A DNA stretch of 64,000 bases. It comes from Sporopachydermia quercuum. Lineage: Eukaryota. This document shows positions 3,819-49,069 of the stretch, piece by piece (the first letter of the stretch is position 1; every line of letters starts with the position of its first letter). A model generated the notes under the pieces. It was not told the DNA's origin. It ran no database searches and was given only the letters and a program-made list of their open reading frames with translations. Location of the stretch: NCBI GenBank assembly GCA_001599295.1, contig BCGN01000001.1:1798001-1862000 (forward strand), in the 5' to 3' direction. Made by a program: the position numbers and the translations under genes.

Positions 3819-5196
3819 TCAAAATTTGAACACTTGATCCTTACTATAACCAAGTTCTGCTAAAATGCCAGTAAGTTCACCTTGATCGGTGGGAGAAACT
3901 TTCAATCCTGATAACGCTTGATAAAATGGTGGAGGTCCGCACACAAAGATTTTAGCCTTCTCTGTGGATGGATCAAAAATTGTTTCTTTCAAAAATTCTT
4001 TAGTGACAAACCCAGTGTGACCTTTCCACTCAGGTGAAGTTGTTTTATCAACGAAATACTCCACTCTCAATTGTTTTGGATATAAGAAGGCTAGCCTATC
4101 NAGTTCTTTCTTGAGAATGATATCTTCTTCAGATTTATTACCATAAATCAATGTTATCTTGCCTTTATCTAAAGGATTGAATAAAATACCTTGCATCAAT
4201 TGATCTGATTATACCGTTAGTAAATCAATTCGACAAGAAGCTATATATATAATTGTTCCATTGCCCTGCTGTGCTCATATAAGAACTATTATGATTCCTC
4301 TAGACTTACAAAGTGGAGTAATACCTGCACCAGCACCAATTAATACAGTATCAAGAATTTCACCAACTTTCCATGGATATTTTCTAATAGGGCCTTGGAA
4401 TGCTAATGTATCATCAGGCTTCATATTACTTATATGCTTCGAAACCACGCCGTTTGGATACTCCTTCACAACTAGTTCTAAATATCCAACCTTGTTAAAC
4501 TCAGACACTGGTGTGTAAGGTCGGATTATGTCTTTACCATCAGGGCCAGGAATTTTAACAAATAAGGCTGATGCTAATTGTAGTCCAGCGACATGTTTCT
4601 TGGTAGGTAATGCAAACCTATATCTTTTGGTATTGTGAGTAATAGGTTCTGCTGTCTCAAGCTATGGTATATGTGTTCGTTAGTAAGGCGTTTGATTGGA
4701 GTGTAGGCAATACCATGAGCCAAAGCCTACGAAGATAAAGGTTTTGAGAGTCCCCAAAACTAGAGCTTAGTATTACAAGAATGAATTGGCATCAACTGTC
4801 TCGCAAAATCATCCTTTGTATTCTTCTTTCTTACCTTCAAATCAATCCATTCATTAGCATTTGTAAATGTCTTAGGTCCTAATGCATGATCAGCCAGGCT
4901 GAAGTTTCTAATCAAATGACGCTTTATTAATTGTTAATAAAACACAAGAATACTTAAAATTAAAACGACAAAAAAAATAACTATGAGAATAGTGTTTAAA
5001 TAAATAACTGTTTCTCTTTATCGATTCTGTGATAATATATGAATGAATAATCTATCACCTCTTTTCATCCATAAACCAGTACTCATCATATTAATCATCA
5101 TAGTCAATCGTATCTTTTCCACTTCAGTCAAAGTAACCAACTTACATCAATCAATGACAATCTATTAGTAGCGTTCGATTTAGTAGCAAGAAACAT
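3819..5196 (-). CDS. MCR1: NADH-cytochrome b5 reductase, MCR1 type, 291-aa PTS2-bearing isoform (exons 5196-5146, 4921-4835, 4661-4310, 4204-3819)
   Basis: FAD motif RPYTP, NADH motifs GAGITPL|YQ and FVCGPP, C-terminal LAELGYSKDQVFKF; introns 4309-4205 (GTAAGT..TACTAAC..CAG), 4834-4662 (GTAAGA..TACTAAC..TAG), 5145-4922 (GTAAGT..TATTAAC..AAG). Family call strong, first-exon choice inferred. Confidence 0.85.
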
Positions 5197-5674
5197 TGTA
5201 CCTTCTTTATCTTCACTATAATCACCAATTCAAATCGTTATTACTGTTCTATAAGTATATTATAGTATACTACTAGTATCTTTCAATCTATCTCTAATGG
5301 CTATCAATAGAATCAATATATGTAGTTAATCAATAACAAGAATAATAAATAAGATGACTCCATATATTCAAAATAAAAAGCAGACATTTCATTCGACTGA
5401 AAACAAAATCTCTATTTCGATGAAACCGGAGCAATCTACTCGTTCCGTTCATTCCTCATTTATGCCTCATAATATTCCCACCCCTTATTCCTTCCATGGC
5501 TTGTTTAGCTTCGTAAGAGTATGGTGAGGCTGGAGGTGATGGACTAGGGAACAACGGAAGTGAAATGTAGGTCATTAATAAATGATTGCTTATTAGATGA
5601 GATGAATCTTGTAAAAAAAGAACTTTTGTTTGTAGATAGCAATAGATACGGAAATTAAGTATATTAGCACTTAC

Positions 5675-5691
5675 GTTTTGGAATTTGTCAT
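5675..5691 (-). CDS. Alternative upstream first exon of the b5 reductase (MTNSKT), phase 2
   Basis: acaATG ACA AAT TCC AAA AC|GTAAGT; in frame with the TAG acceptor at 4908 (275-aa product) or the TAG acceptor at 5162. Confidence 0.55.
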
Positions 5692-5926
5692 TGTTGATAG
5701 TGATTTTCTGGGATGGGTTGTCTGTTGAACCAACTGTTTAATTCTAAAAGCAAGTTTACCTTTTCTTGGATTAAAAGAATAACTGAATAAAAGGAAAACT
5801 ATCATTAGTCCTCCGTGGTATTAAATATATGAACAAAAAGTTCCATTCTTATAAGGTAATTTATTGGTAGAAATAGGATTCTCACCAAGCAAAGTTGATT
5901 GAGTTATTTAGCTCATTGATTTCTTA

Positions 5927-5932
5927 CCTCGG
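5927..5932 (-). promoter_or_regulatory. CCGAGG (FarA/Ctf1/Por1-type fatty-acid response element) upstream of the b5 reductase
   Basis: CCTCGG on +, about 235 bp upstream of the ATG at 5691; single hexamer match only. Confidence 0.3.
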
Positions 5933-6707
5933 AAGAAACTCCCATATTGGTGTCAAAACCAAATGAATGGTGTGATTCTACATAAATACATACTTTGAAA
6001 GATGTTATCTCCGTCGAATATATTGATTACATACTTATAGAGGTAGTTGAAACAAAAAAATCCATTATTTAACATAGAATAATAGTTGCTATTTCGTTGA
6101 ATTCATTAGATTGAAATAATACAAAGCTTCAATGAACTACTTGGCAATCAATAGCCGATGATCACACTGATAGTTAGGTATGAAGCATGGAGAGATTGTG
6201 GGAAGGAAAGTATGCGATACTATGAGCTAACATTAATATGATATACGCGCTGTATTTTTTTATGAAAGTCCAATAATAAGACTTTGATATTTTAATTTAT
6301 ATTTGTTTTGTCAAAGAGTATTAGTTCGGAGTCTTACGAAGCTGTGAGAAGAATGAAGAAGAGAATCGCCAATTATCACATCAAACCTATCAATCGGCAA
6401 GGGGTGTGCATATTACTGCATGTTCTGCATATGATCTAACTTAATTCGTCTTCCCTCTAGCACTTTTCTATTTTTATTGAGACAACGAAATAATTTCTGT
6501 TTATCATAAATATTATAGAAAAACAATCCTAGTATCAACTCGCTTGGGAACATCAACAAGTTTATTGATCAAATCAATTACAATCCTGTCATTATTTATT
6601 TAGAGCAAGCCTGACTTGCTCTTTCTCTGTTTCCGTTCCCTTCTCATTAATCTACGGAGCCTGTCATTTCTCTACTAATACTTCATAGCTATCACATCTA
6701 ATAAACA

Positions 6708-7881
6708 ATGTCACGAAATAAAGAAAAATCACAGTCTATGCTGTATAGATTCAAAGAACAACAAGCTGCTGAACTAGGTATTGTTGATATCGGAAGAACT
6801 CAAAGACCACGAAGAGTGGAAACTGTCGATAGTGTTGCAATGTGTGAGAAATGGAGAGGACAAGTTATAAGAGATATTAGCTGGAAAGTAACCAAGATTC
6901 AAGATGGTATGTTATTAGATTATGCTATTATATCAAGTATATACATTGGAAAGAAGAAGAAAAGAAGCATTTGATGATTAAAAAGACGTTAGAATTAAAG
7001 CGAGAAATATCTTGTTTTTACTGTTCATCTATTTGCTGTTTGGTTGTTCAACTCTTTGAATGTTGTAAAAAATAATTAGCTCCACTACTCAACTGATCTA
7101 GTCTTTCTACTGTTGCTTTAACATCGATTTCTTTCTGGACAAAAGCTTTTATTTCACTTATAACAATTTAATCAATATTCCTTACTAACTGGAATCTAGA
7201 ATCACTCACTGATTTTCAAATCCGAGATCTCAATGATGAAATCAATAAACTAATGAGAGAGAAACATGCATGGGAAATACGGATAAAAGATCTAGGTGGG
7301 CCAAATTATATTGTAAGTAGCTACTTATGCTGTTATTCGGATATCTATGATATTTCTGTCTTTTTATTCATGCATTCACATATGAAATTATTCATGGTTA
7401 CTAACACCAGNCTCGCGGTAAATAGAGATTTGCAAGACACACTATTGAAAATGGTGATCCGGTTCCAATGGTCAAAGGGTATCGTTATTTCGGTAGAGCA
7501 AAAGAACTTCCTGGAGTGAAAGAAATACTGGAAGCTCAGAAACAGAAGTTAAAAGATCAATTAAATGGAGAATACAGTAAAGAGTCTGAAAAGAAAAAGC
7601 AATTATCGTTCATGAAATATAAGCTAGACGCTGAGTATTTTGGTTTTGACGAAGAGGATGATGAAATAGATGATGAACTGGATAAAGGAGAAGAAATGAA
7701 ACTTTCAAGAAGAAGGTATGAAATGGTGTCAACGCAGTATTCACAGTCAAAATTAACAGGTTTTGATATATCAACGTTTGAACCAATACAGGAAGATGTT
7801 TGTAAGATACCGAATCAAAGTGACGTAGAGAGATGGTTGGTAGAAAGAGAGAAAAAAAAGCTAAGAGATAGACTATTATGA
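6708..7881 (+). CDS. ISY1: Pre-mRNA splicing factor Isy1 (exons 6708-6906, 7200-7312, 7426-7881)
   Basis: [57 protein letters not shown]; introns 6907-7199 (GTATGT..TACTAAC..TAG) and 7313-7425 (GTAAGT..TACTAAC..TAG). Confidence 0.93.
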
Positions 7882-46676: not shown

Positions 46677-49069
46677 TTAAAGTAAATTTGGACCATTGTA
46701 TACACTCCCTCTAATGTTTTGCTGGTTCTGATTCAAGTTAGATCCATAATTCATATTCATGCCTGTCATGTTCATAGGATCCATTTGAGCACTTTGTTGG
46801 AAATTCATTTGAGGATTGAATCCCTGGAAATTGCCTGTATTATTAGGGAAGATGTTTGGATTAACCATACTCGTACCACCATTCATACCAGTAAAACTTG
46901 AGGCGCCAGCTAGTTGACCGTTAGCAACAGCCTTGGTTTCAGGAAATACTGGAATTGTATACTGCTGTTCTAATCCACCCATCGTCGCAAGGGGCTGTTG
47001 CTGCTGCTGAGTAAGAATACTACTTGATGAATCTGTTCTAAAAGGATTCGACCCTGTTGCTTGAGCTGATAATTTGTTATCAGGCAAGCCGGTAGCTGAA
47101 AAGGACTGTCTTTTAACTATATTGTTGCTGACATTGCCAAATCCAGCACCGGTTGGTTGATTAGCGAGAAATGGGTTGGCTTGATTCTGGGTTAAAGGAT
47201 TGGATTGTTGTTGAAGCTGTTGCTGCTGCTGAAGCTGTAACTGTTGATGTTGTAACTGCTGTTGTTGCAATTGCTGTTGTTGTAACTGTTGTTGTTGTAA
47301 CTGTTGTTGCTGCAATTGCTGTTGCTGTAGCTGCTGTAGCTGCTGNTGCTGTTGCTGTTGTTGCTGCTGTTGCATTTGTTGTTGATGTAACTGCTGCTGT
47401 TGCTGTTGGTGTTGTTGGGCAAAGTTTTGACCGGCAGCAAAAGGATTAGATGATGACGCATGCATAGGAATCTGCATACCTGTAGCTTGAGCTTGTGGGA
47501 AAACTGACTGCTGCTGTGGTTGCGTTTGCTGTTGTATCAATGACTCAACACCTGTGACTTGAGCAGTTTGTCCTTGTCCTAAACCAATACTAGAGCCATT
47601 GAATTGAGGTTGGGTCTGGCCTTGATTTTGCCCTGTCATTGCCATTGCCATGTTCAAATTGGCAAAAGGATTACTGGTCAATTGAGGATGTAACTGACCT
47701 TGGAAAATAGAACTACCGGATACAGATGGAGTGGTAGTGGTAGAACCAGTAGCAGAATTTGATGGCGATGAAAATAAAGTTTCCTGTAAGGCAATACCAT
47801 TAACTAGGTTCGCGGGAATAAATTGTGTATTTGGTGGTAGTGTTTGAGTGAAAATTTGCTGTTGAGCAACAGGTTGGAGTTGAATTTGATTTTTTTGAGT
47901 TTGCACTTGGGTCTGGGCTGGAGCTTGTTGTACTGCTTGAGATTGGATCTGACCTCGAGCTTGAGTTTGTTGTGATTGTTCCGCAAATGATTGNCCGTCG
48001 TCATTGGATGGTCTAGTTTTTGGGGCAACGGCTGAAACTGATCCTTTACCACTAGCTTCATGAGCTTGTCTTTCAGCTAAAAATTGAGTTCTATTGATCT
48101 CAAAGTTAGGATCATCAAGATACTCTCTCAAGCTTTGACCAAGCTGAGTAGGGGCATGCTTTATATTAGGAATATGTAATTTGGTAGAATACTCCAAATG
48201 TTTAGCAACTTTCAAATAATCAATAACATCAGATGTCATATTGGCAAAATCATTATAGATTTCTAAAGCCCTTTCAGCGTCAGGGCGAGACATTTCAAAA
48301 TAGTGTTCTAATATATTAATGACACCTTCATTGACCACTTGAAATAAGGATAATAAATCATTGACCAACATTCTAAATTCAGTCAAAACAATGTCATTGT
48401 TTACATCTTGTTCACGGAATCTACAACGCAACAAGACGGCAATCTGTCTAATGACACCTTCTACCTCGCGCAACAATCCTTTTTCCACTGACAGTTTTTT
48501 AAGTCTATTCACGTCACGGCCTCCAGAATTTGCTCTTACATAGTCGACTTTTAGTGCTGCGTATTGCTTTGCTCTTTCGGTGATGTAGCTAGCATAGCGA
48601 TGTAAATTTCTATCATCTGCTCCATTGCGAGGAATTTGTCTGGCATCTAACATATGTAAATGGGTTGAAAGGTATCTCAATGTTTTATCTTTCTCTCCCT
48701 CTCTGATCATGATATGTAAAACAATTAATGATTTATAAACAACACTCCATGCCGAATCGTTAAGTCTTATTTTTAAGTACTTCATAACAGCGTGAAAATC
48801 ATCGCTGTTTGAAGTCGCCATAAGAATTGGTTCAATATATTTTGGTTTAGGAGCTGCCACCTTGACTTTGGTAGCACCCTTTATAAGTTGTTAGTATGAA
48901 GTGATTAGATTCCATGTCAATACTGGATATCATTGTAGAAACCTATTTGAGCGTCTATTTGCTAATATTATCCAAAAGCATACTGTTCTTAGACGAGTAG
49001 CTTCAATCGCACACTCAATCACTCAAAACAAAACAAACATACCTTAACAATCTTCTCATAAGTAGTCAT
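46677..49069 (-). CDS. YAP1801: ANTH-domain clathrin adaptor AP180/Yap180 (exons 49069-49043, 48878-46677)
   Basis: MTTYEKIVK|GATKVKVAAPKPKYIEPIL, LSVEKGLLREVE, VINILEHYFEMS; several NPF motifs, polyQ; intron GTATGT..TACTAAC..AAG. Confidence 0.92.

What the first reader, a model, noticed from the sequence alone, without database searches (positions are those of the whole stretch)
4835..5196. A peroxisomal PTS2 signal is assembled across a splice junction in the NADH-cytochrome b5 reductase
Seen: a 51-nt exon (acaATG at 5196 to GAT|GTAAGT at 5146) encodes MFLATKSNATNRLSLID in phase 0; the first AG after the branch point TATTAAC (4939-4933) is an AAG 11 nt away (4922), and the next exon reads RHLIRNFSLADHALGPKTF in frame with the reductase. 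The junction creates RLSLID|RHL, an exact R-L-x5-H-L PTS2 near the N-terminus. The same AAG acceptor and 11-nt spacing is used by the YAP180 intron in this window. Established: Mcr1-type reductases normally carry a mitochondrial signal plus membrane anchor, absent here; PTS2 is read by Pex7. Inference: a soluble peroxisomal b5 reductase (NADH reoxidation or lipid redox); the leader also resembles a mitochondrial presequence (R-N-F-S), so targeting may be dual.
Basis: partly seen in the sequence, partly recalled or inferred. Interest (0 to 1): 0.9.

Follow-up and report, generated by a model that had tools for sequence, protein, structure and literature searches.

The report
Anchor-less yeast b5 reductase, PTS2-like leader
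A budding-yeast gene for a mitochondrial-type NADH-cytochrome b5 reductase has lost its membrane anchor, and after splicing its leader carries both a peroxisome-import motif and a mitochondrial cleavage motif, so the enzyme may go to peroxisomes, mitochondria or both, which only an experiment can settle.

Summary
On the minus strand, 3819-5196 is a four-exon, 291-residue Mcr1-type NADH-cytochrome b5 reductase. A 51-nt first exon with a GTAAGT donor joins, through TATTAAC plus an AAG 11 nt on, to an exon that has no ATG of its own. The junction spells RLSLID|RHL at residues 12-20. The YAP180 intron in the window uses TACTAAC plus 11 nt plus AAG, and the codons across its junction stay in frame.

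The leader has no hydrophobic anchor, whereas 209 of 239 homologues do. It keeps two features typical of the family's mitochondrial leaders: an MF start and R-N-F-S.

No RNA run and no close relative could be found, so splicing and conservation remain untested.

One other homologue, from Tortispora caseinolytica, also lacks the anchor and has RLRKILAHL at residues 4-12. It was the only one of 263 homologues with such a motif, and it is probably an independent case.

My odds:
- Working PTS2, alone or shared with mitochondria: 0.45.
- Mitochondrial presequence only: 0.30.
- Different 5' gene model: 0.15.
- No working signal: 0.10.

Two literature searches found no paper describing a PTS2-bearing b5 reductase.

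The parts
5146..5196 (-). Exon 1 (51 nt, 17 codons, ATG at 5196-5194), encodes MFLATKSNATNRLSLID; holds the first six residues of the nonapeptide (codons at 5163-5146)
   Evidence: MF start shared with 111 of 239 homologues; shuffles
4922..5145 (-). Intron 1 (224 nt): donor GTAAGT 5145-5140, branch-point-like TATTAAC 4939-4933, acceptor AAG 4924-4922
   Evidence: splicing inferred, no RNA evidence
4835..4921 (-). Exon 2 (87 nt, 29 codons, no ATG): R-H-L of the nonapeptide at 4921-4913; R-N-F-S at 4909-4898
   Evidence: the only AG between the in-frame stop (4936-4934) and the R codon 4909-4907 is the AAG at 4923-4922
4662..4834 (-). Intron 2 (173 nt): GTAAGA donor, TACTAAC 4685-4679, TAG acceptor
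4310..4661 (-). Exon 3 (352 nt): FAD-binding domain, includes RPYTP
   Evidence: Pfam PF00970, E 6.6e-26
4205..4309 (-). Intron 3 (105 nt): GTAAGT donor, TACTAAC 4222-4216, CAG acceptor 11 nt on; splits a TAT codon
3819..4204 (-). Exon 4 (386 nt with stop): NAD-binding domain, ends ...DQVFKF; one N in a CTN (Leu) codon
   Evidence: Pfam PF00175, E 8e-18; PDB 7rom NADH-cytochrome b5 reductase 1, E 5.9e-20
48879..49042 (-). Comparison intron in the YAP180 (ANTH) gene: GTATGT donor, TACTAAC 48896-48890, AAG acceptor 11 nt on
   Evidence: the junction IVK|GATKVK keeps the ANTH-domain frame

Best explanation
The locus is an intact four-exon gene for a soluble, anchor-less NADH-cytochrome b5 reductase of the Mcr1 lineage.

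Splicing of a 51-nt first exon to the AAG acceptor at 4922 yields a 41-residue leader. In it, the position occupied by the membrane anchor in the nearest relative (P0202) is taken by an amphipathic, positively charged stretch. That stretch contains RLSLIDRHL at residues 12-20, followed by R-N-F-S at residues 22-25.

The most likely working is as follows. The nonapeptide is read by Pex7 as a PTS2, so at least part of the enzyme enters the peroxisomal matrix. There it would oxidise NADH on some acceptor (inferred). The rest of the leader still looks like the family's mitochondrial presequence, so a share of the protein probably also goes to mitochondria (dual targeting).

Shown: the gene anatomy, the family, the absence of an anchor, the presence of both motifs and their rarity by chance.
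Inferred: the splice itself, Pex7 recognition, the localisation and the physiological role.
For: Gene model:
- Exon 2 is open only from 4933 and has no ATG, so an upstream exon is needed.
- Exon 1 has a perfect GTAAGT donor, is in phase with the first AG after TATTAAC, and starts with MF as 111 of 239 homologues do.
- Chance rates from shuffles: 9.7% for any phase-0 mini-exon, 1.0% for one starting MF, 1.0% for the branch-point-like site.
- Keeping the family-typical R of R-N-F-S requires the AAG, because it is the only AG between the in-frame stop and that codon.
- The YAP180 intron shows this yeast's genes can use an AAG 11 nt after the branch point.

Family:
- Pfam FAD_binding_6 and NAD_binding_1 both match.
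- The protein is 50% identical to S. cerevisiae Mcr1p (P0010).
- It falls inside the budding-yeast Mcr1 group in two trees.

No anchor: leader hydropathy maximum is 0.2, against 1.0 or more in 209 of 239 homologues.

Motif:
- It is an exact R-L-x5-H-L with I at position 5, near the N-terminus.
- Its chance rate is 0.25-0.5% given the leader's composition.
- The strict pattern occurs in the first 60 residues of only 1 of 263 M-start homologues. That one (P0059, Tortispora caseinolytica) is also anchor-less, with RLRKILAHL at residues 4-12.
- The tree does not place P0059 with the window protein, which suggests two independent cases of anchor loss accompanied by a PTS2-like motif.

Tolerance at position 6: Histoplasma Pot1 (RLSQVTSHL, T at position 6) needs Pex7 for import (passages of PMC13343957).

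Precedent for a splice-dependent PTS2 in budding yeasts: C. albicans GND1 (passages of PMC7491326).
Against: - There is no RNA evidence for the splice.
- TATTAAC is not the TACTAAC seen in the other introns scanned in this window.
- A TAG lies 25 nt and a CAG 34 nt after the branch point. Both are out of frame, and use of either would destroy the protein.
- Position 6 of the nonapeptide is D, outside (LSGA) of the consensus quoted in PMC4726662.
- No orthologue was found, so conservation of R, L, H and L is untested.
- The leader keeps the MF start and an R-x-F-S site like the mitochondrial leaders of relatives, has net charge +3 over residues 1-24, and forms an amphipathic stretch at about 12-28. 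It could therefore be a plain mitochondrial presequence.
- Other anchor-less family members have no PTS2-like motif (for example P0057 Mrakia and P0081 Basidiobolus). Anchor loss alone does not imply peroxisomes.
- The AU test does not formally reject a single origin with Tortispora (p = 0.068).
- No oleate-response element lies upstream. There is only one CCTCGG, about 730 bp upstream.
Confidence: 0.45

Rival explanations
1. Mitochondrial only. The leader is simply the family's matrix-type presequence, and the RLx5HL nonapeptide is a by-product of an R-, L- and H-containing amphipathic helix. Without the stop-transfer anchor, the enzyme would be imported fully into the mitochondrial matrix and cleaved at R-N-F|S.
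For: - The family is mitochondrial: Mcr1p is the reference member, and it is listed among mitochondrial proteins in PMC2063889.
- 111 of 239 homologues start with MF, and 114 of the 209 anchored ones carry R-x-[FY]-[AS] before the anchor, for example ..ARNFST.. in P0009. The window's leader has both features.
- The leader has net charge +3 and a hydrophobic moment of about 0.55-0.59 over residues 12-28.
- Looser PTS2-like strings do occur in anchored relatives (P0019, P0025, P0041).
- That R-x-[FY]|[AS] is a matrix processing site, and that loss of a stop-transfer segment sends such proteins to the matrix, is recalled textbook knowledge and was not checked here.
Against: - The exact R-L-x5-H-L arises in only 0.25-0.5% of shuffles of the leader.
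- None of the anchored homologues inspected has it.
- The only other family member with the strict motif is also anchor-less.
- An acidic residue (D17) sits in the middle of the supposed presequence.
Confidence: 0.3
2. The 5' end of the gene is different, so the nonapeptide is never made. Possibilities include another first exon (for example ATG 5945 with a GTAAGA donor joined to the same AAG, or ATG 5805 or 5691 with the GTAAGT donor at 5674 joined to the TAG acceptor at 4908) or another acceptor.
For: - Enumeration found 18 stop-free combinations of ATG, donor and acceptor upstream. Four of the donors involved are strong.
- TAG and CAG acceptors lie 25 and 34 nt after the branch point.
- There is no RNA evidence either way.
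Against: - The rival exons lie 480-1350 nt further upstream and would require introns of 766-1500 nt that swallow a perfectly good ATG-GTAAGT exon.
- Of the rival first exons, only the one at 6553 starts with MF, and it has a weak GTTAGA donor.
- The TAG and CAG acceptors remove the R of the family-typical R-N-F-S.
- The 5196 exon together with the branch-point-like site is unlikely by chance.
- A TATA-like run lies 40-70 nt upstream of ATG 5196.
Confidence: 0.15
3. Neither signal works. The enzyme is a soluble cytosolic reductase, or a decaying paralogue, with a meaningless leader.
For: - Some family members appear to have no leader at all in current annotations.
- A second contig of the same genome matches 4445-4508 with 8 differences. 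This hints at another reductase-like copy.
Against: - All four exons are open with consensus splice signals, and the cofactor motifs are intact.
- Two independent rare motifs sit in the leader.
- The leaderless Lipomyces models share a 90% cluster with a 319-residue form that has a leader, so they are probably truncated annotations.
Confidence: 0.1

Closest known systems
Mcr1p, mitochondrial NADH-cytochrome b5 reductase of Saccharomyces cerevisiae (P0010)
   Same: - Same two-domain enzyme.
- 50% identity from residue 34 to the C-terminus.
- Same ...DQVFKF C-terminus.
- The window protein groups with it in trees.
- Both start with MF.
   Different: Mcr1p has a hydrophobic signal-anchor right after a short basic N-terminus. 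The window protein has none and instead carries RLSLIDRHL and R-N-F-S.
Tortispora caseinolytica ODV89665.1 (P0059), annotated only as hypothetical protein / NADH-cytochrome b5 reductase
   Same: - Mcr1-type reductase without an anchor.
- R-L-x5-H-L near the N-terminus (residues 4-12).
- 48% identity over the core.
   Different: - Its nonapeptide fits the full published consensus, and its leader is only about 19 residues, with no MF start and no R-x-F-S.
- It is not the sister of the window protein in the tree. A single clade is disfavoured but not rejected (p = 0.068).
- Its localisation is untested as far as my searches show.
Known PTS2 cargoes (thiolase Pot1; Gpd1)
   Same: - N-terminal nonapeptide of the R-L-x5-H-L kind. 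Histoplasma Pot1 has RLSQVTSHL and is Pex7-dependent.
- Gpd1, like this enzyme, is NAD(H)-linked and takes part in peroxisomal redox balance. I saw only the title and the start of the abstract of PMC5605654. Gpd1's PTS2 is recalled, and also implied by the title and abstract of PMC5314374 in the listing.
   Different: - Different enzyme family.
- D at position 6.
- The motif sits inside a leader that also looks mitochondrial.
Candida albicans GND1 alternative 3' splice site that includes a PTS2 (Strijbis et al. 2012, as described in PMC7491326)
   Same: In a budding yeast, splicing decides whether a PTS2 is present at the N-terminus (passages).
   Different: - There, two productive isoforms exist.
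- Here, the nearby alternative acceptors (TAG at 4908, CAG at 4899) are out of frame, so the splice looks constitutive.
- One in-frame alternative (the AG at 4872-4871) would drop 17 residues including H-L and R-N-F-S, but it lies behind three other AGs.

Membership tests
NADH-cytochrome b5 reductase (FNR-like flavoenzyme) | FAD-binding and NAD-binding domains in this order | tested here: met
   PF00970 E 6.6e-26 on exon 3 and PF00175 E 8e-18 on exon 4. Best solved relative is 7rom, NADH-cytochrome b5 reductase 1, E 5.9e-20.
NADH-cytochrome b5 reductase (FNR-like flavoenzyme) | Cofactor motifs R-x-Y-T/S, G-x-G-x-x-P and C-G-P-P (the motif list is recalled) | tested here: met
   RPYTP, GAGAGITP and CGPPP are all present in the spliced translation.
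Mcr1-type (mitochondrial) reductase | Groups with Mcr1 rather than with other b5 reductases | tested here: met
   - Inside the budding-yeast Mcr1 group in two trees.
- 50% identity to Mcr1p.
- No Cbr1-type sequences were included in the trees, so the contrast rests on hit ranking.
Mcr1-type (mitochondrial) reductase | N-terminal hydrophobic signal-anchor | tested here: not met
   Best 17-residue hydropathy in the leader is 0.2. 209 of 239 homologues reach 1.0 or more.
PTS2 cargo | Nonapeptide R-(LIVQ)-X-X-(LIVQH)-(LSGA)-X-(HQ)-(LA), as quoted in PMC4726662 | tested here: not met
   RLSLIDRHL fits five of the six specified positions. D at position 6 does not fit. The simpler R-L-x5-H-L is met exactly.
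PTS2 cargo | Motif close to the N-terminus of a soluble protein | tested here: met
   Residues 12-20, with no hydrophobic segment in the leader. This depends on the inferred splice.
PTS2 cargo | Pex7-dependent import into peroxisomes | not testable with these tools
   Needs localisation in wild type against a pex7 deletion.
PTS2 cargo | Motif conserved in orthologues | tested here: inconclusive
   No relative was closer than 57% (core only), and the nearest (P0202) has an anchor. One distant anchor-less relative has a PTS2-like motif.
Mitochondrial matrix-type presequence | Positively charged amphipathic N-terminus with an R-x-[FY]|[AS] processing site (criteria recalled) | tested here: met
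   - Net charge +3 over residues 1-24, and hydrophobic moment 0.55-0.59 over 12-28.
- R-N-F-S at residues 22-25, matching the motif present in 114 of 209 anchored homologues.
- One acidic residue (D17) lies within it.
- No trained predictor was available.

The most novel reading that the evidence does not exclude
Mcr1-type b5 reductases have at least twice independently lost their membrane anchor and gained a Pex7-read PTS2: once in this yeast lineage and once in Tortispora. This would create a previously undescribed class of PTS2 cargo, a soluble peroxisomal NADH oxidoreductase acting beside the malate and glycerol-3-phosphate shuttles. In this yeast the PTS2 would be embedded in a still-functional mitochondrial presequence, so a single overlapping N-terminal signal would send the enzyme to both organelles.
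Probability: 0.25. Interest if true: 0.7.

Novelty: new variant of a known kind. Interest (0 to 1): 0.5.

Why it matters
By recall, known PTS2 cargoes in yeasts are very few, essentially thiolase and Gpd1. How peroxisomes dispose of the NADH made by beta-oxidation is explained by only two shuttles in S. cerevisiae, according to the title and abstract of PMC5605654 as listed.

A b5-reductase-type NADH oxidoreductase imported by Pex7 would add a new cargo class and a possible third route for peroxisomal redox balance. An N-terminal signal that is at once a mitochondrial presequence and a PTS2 would be a compact model for how targeting signals are re-purposed.

If the motif is fortuitous, the locus is still a clean example of an Mcr1 paralogue or orthologue that became soluble. 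It would also serve as a warning that R-L-x5-H-L can arise inside presequences.

Tried and rejected
**RNA evidence**
- The look-up of sequencing runs listed no RNA holder.
- Read laying on X1, X2, X4 and X5 gave only the organism's own DNA contigs. Nothing came from the two other organisms of the same study, even at 80% likeness.

**Whole genome**
- None is held for this window, so I could not look for a second, anchored MCR1, nor for PEX7.

**Close relatives**
- Word-based search with exon 3, longer proteins: 4 hits, best 52% identity.
- Exhaustive search of the 50% representatives: best 53% identity.
- Profile search with Tortispora plus the window's exons: 3795 hits, of which I saw only the best 120, none close.
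- Metagenome contigs: 383 pattern matches, none confirmed.
- A Rix7 search placed the organism at 53-60% identity from many budding-yeast orders, with no near relative.

**Earlier findings of this scan**
- Three look-ups returned nothing.

**Promoter motifs**
- No oleate-response element. One CCTCGG about 730 bp upstream, against 5 in the whole window. This is too weak to use.

**Other checks**
- Hidden anchor exon inside intron 1: the open frames there are not hydrophobic, so I rejected this.
- Rfam and tRNA scans of the window found nothing.
- I did not attempt structure prediction, because the spliced protein is a joined sequence.
- No TargetP or MitoFates was available. Only my own crude charge and hydrophobic-moment measures were used.

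**Literature**
- 'cytochrome b5 reductase' + PTS2 + peroxisom: 1 paper, unrelated.
- Mcr1 + peroxisomal + PTS2: 1 paper, which lists Mcr1p as mitochondrial.
- One search also turned up no peroxisomal PTS2 reductase.
- I did not see the supplementary figures of PMC7491326, which show PTS2 alignments of GND.

Full report
**What is in the sequence**

On the minus strand between 5196 and 3819 lies a four-exon gene:
- Exon 1: 5196-5146, 17 codons, MFLATKSNATNRLSLID.
- Intron 1: 5145-4922, with donor GTAAGT, TATTAAC at 4939-4933 and an AAG acceptor ending at 4922.
- Exon 2: 4921-4835, 29 codons, beginning RHLIRNFSLADH...
- Intron 2: 4834-4662, GTAAGA ... TACTAAC ... TAG.
- Exon 3: 4661-4310.
- Intron 3: 4309-4205, GTAAGT ... 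TACTAAC, then CAG 11 nt on.
- Exon 4: 4204-3819.

The spliced frame is 876 nt and encodes 291 residues with no internal stop.

Exon 3 matches Pfam FAD_binding_6 (E 6.6e-26) and exon 4 matches NAD_binding_1 (E 8e-18). The best solved relative of exon 4 is an NADH-cytochrome b5 reductase 1, PDB 7rom, E 5.9e-20.

**Is the first exon real?**

Exon 2's frame opens only at 4933 and contains no ATG. The first Met of exon 3 lies deep in the FAD domain. An upstream coding exon is therefore required.

An enumeration of ATG-donor-acceptor combinations over 2.3 kb upstream gave 18 stop-free models.
- It is the nearest to exon 2.
- It has a perfect donor.
- It uses the first AG after the only branch-point-like heptamer.
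- It starts with MF, as do 111 of 239 M-start homologues with a leader of 25 or more residues.

In 20,000 shuffles of the 479 nt upstream:
- a phase-0 ATG-to-GTA[AT]GT mini-exon arose in 9.7%;
- one starting with MF arose in 1.0%;
- a TACTAAC-like site 8-20 nt before the AAG arose in 1.0%.

The acceptor gets independent support. 114 of the 209 homologues with a hydrophobic segment carry R-x-[FY]-[AS] before that segment, for example ..ARNFST.. in P0009. The window has R-N-F-S at residues 22-25. The only AG between the in-frame stop (4936-4934) and that R codon (4909-4907) is the AAG at 4923-4922. The next acceptor, the TAG at 4910-4908, overlaps and destroys the R codon and is out of frame with exon 1.

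The YAP180 gene of the same window (ANTH domain) has an intron at 49042-48879 with TACTAAC, 11 letters, then AAG. The exon junction IVK|GATKVK keeps the ANTH frame. An AAG at that distance is therefore plausible in this yeast. Other TACTAAC-bearing candidate introns in the window have 5-17 nt between branch point and acceptor.

Weak points of the model:
- TATTAAC is one letter off the TACTAAC seen elsewhere in the window.
- No RNA run holds the locus, so the splice is inferred.

I put the model at about 0.85.

**What the protein is**

The core, from about residue 34, has the following identities:

| Relative | Identity |
|---|---|
| P0202 (unnamed NCBI protein) | 57% |
| P0229 (in a cluster with Blastobotrys adeninivorans) | 56% |
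| S. cerevisiae Mcr1p (P0010, named) | 50% |
| Tortispora caseinolytica ODV89665.1 (P0059) | 48% |

In a 62-row tree and in a 26-row tree built on the core only, the window protein sits inside the budding-yeast Mcr1 group. In the second tree it is sister to P0202, with support 90/83. From the 62-row tree I dropped 8 near-identical Lipomyces rows.

A Rix7 search with another gene of the window gave 53-60% identity to many budding-yeast orders and nothing closer. The organism therefore belongs to a lineage without annotated near relatives. That explains why no orthologue could be found.

**The leader**

The leader is 41 residues long before the conserved W. This is the same length as in P0202 (42 residues, counted). 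Where P0202, Mcr1p and 209 of 239 homologues have a hydrophobic stretch, the window protein has ..ATNRLSLIDRHLIRNF. The maximum 17-residue hydropathy is 0.2. No hydrophobic exon hides in intron 1. The protein should therefore be soluble.

The leader carries two rare motifs.

1. R-L-x5-H-L at residues 12-20, with I at position 5.
   - Shuffling the leader's own residues gives this motif in 0.25-0.5% of trials.
   - Among 263 M-start homologues, the stricter pattern occurs within the first 60 residues in one only. That is P0059, which has RLRKILAHL at residues 4-12 and is also anchor-less.
   - The published consensus R-(LIVQ)-X-X-(LIVQH)-(LSGA)-X-(HQ)-(LA) (passage of PMC4726662) is missed at position 6 (D).
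   - A Pex7-dependent Pot1 of Histoplasma has T at that position (RLSQVTSHL; passages of PMC13343957). Position 6 is therefore not absolute.

2. The MF start and R-N-F-S. These are the hallmarks of the family's mitochondrial leaders. They come with net charge +3 over residues 1-24 and an amphipathic stretch over about 12-28. That R-x-[FY]|[AS] marks matrix processing is recalled knowledge.

**How it most likely works**

Both motifs are individually unlikely by chance. The reading that accounts for both is a soluble reductase whose leader is a remodelled mitochondrial presequence now also read by Pex7.

My odds:

| Reading | Odds |
|---|---|
| Working PTS2 (about half of this is dual targeting) | 0.45 |
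| Mitochondrial presequence only | 0.30 |
| Different 5' gene model | 0.15 |
| No working signal | 0.10 |

The Tortispora protein is the strongest outside support. It is a second anchor-less Mcr1-type enzyme with a nonapeptide that fits the full consensus. The tree does not join it to the window protein, and a forced clade costs 11.9 log-likelihood units (AU p = 0.068). That clade is disfavoured but not rejected. Either reading favours function:
- If the two are independent, this is convergence.
- If they share an origin, the motif has been conserved over a deep split.

Against this, other anchor-less relatives carry no such motif, for example Mrakia P0057 and Basidiobolus P0081. The apparently leaderless Lipomyces models share a 90% cluster with a 319-residue form that has a leader, so they look like truncated annotations.

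The physiological role is inference only. It might be NADH re-oxidation in the peroxisome beside the two known shuttles (title and abstract of PMC5605654, as listed).

**Does the splice junction matter?**

That the motif straddles the junction appears incidental.
- The nearby alternative acceptors are out of frame.
- The one in-frame alternative (the AG at 4872-4871) would remove 17 residues including H-L and R-N-F-S, but it lies behind three other AGs.
- Splice-dependent inclusion of a PTS2 does have a precedent in budding yeasts: GND1 of C. albicans and relatives (passages of PMC7491326).

**Novelty**

Two full-text searches combining b5 reductase or Mcr1 with PTS2 and peroxisome found one paper each. 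Neither describes such an enzyme. A third search found nothing either. The library lacks most subscription journals, so this is not proof of absence.

I rate the finding a new variant of a known kind: an Mcr1-type reductase with a changed targeting signal. It is of moderate interest until localisation is tested.

Noticed in passing
window 4445-4508: In both DNA runs of the organism, a second contig of about 16.7 kb ends with a 64-nt stretch that matches this part of the FAD domain with 8 differences. This may be a fragment of, or a paralogue of, the reductase. The 20 letters beyond it do not continue the reading frame.
   Followed up: partly
window 5197-6880: The gap between the reductase start and the divergent ISY1 gene is about 1.7 kb. 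It has no ORF over 93 codons, no tRNA and no Rfam match. That is unusually long for a yeast intergenic region.
   Followed up: partly
window 6907-7410 (+): The ISY1-like splicing-factor gene appears to have two introns, both with TACTAAC: GTATGT at 6907 to about 7199, and GTAAGT at 7313 to about 7410. In the second, the branch point is only 5 nt from the CAG.
   Followed up: no
window 4872-4871 (minus strand acceptor): An in-frame alternative acceptor would give an isoform 17 residues shorter, lacking H-L of the nonapeptide and R-N-F-S. It lies behind three other AGs, so it is probably unused.
   Followed up: no
P0012/P0156-P0164 versus P0157 (Lipomyces): 263-residue 'leaderless' reductase models and a 319-residue model with a leader and hydrophobic segment fall in one 90% cluster. 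The short forms are probably missing a first exon. This is a caution for any survey of N-terminal signals in yeast annotations.
   Followed up: partly
window, 48 N positions, e.g. in the codon near 4101: The window contains 48 N. The one inside exon 4 falls in a CTN codon and does not change the residue, which is Leu.
   Followed up: yes
window 5927-5932: A single CCTCGG, a fatty-acid-regulator type site by recall, lies about 730 bp upstream of the reductase ATG. There are 5 such sites in the whole window.
   Followed up: partly
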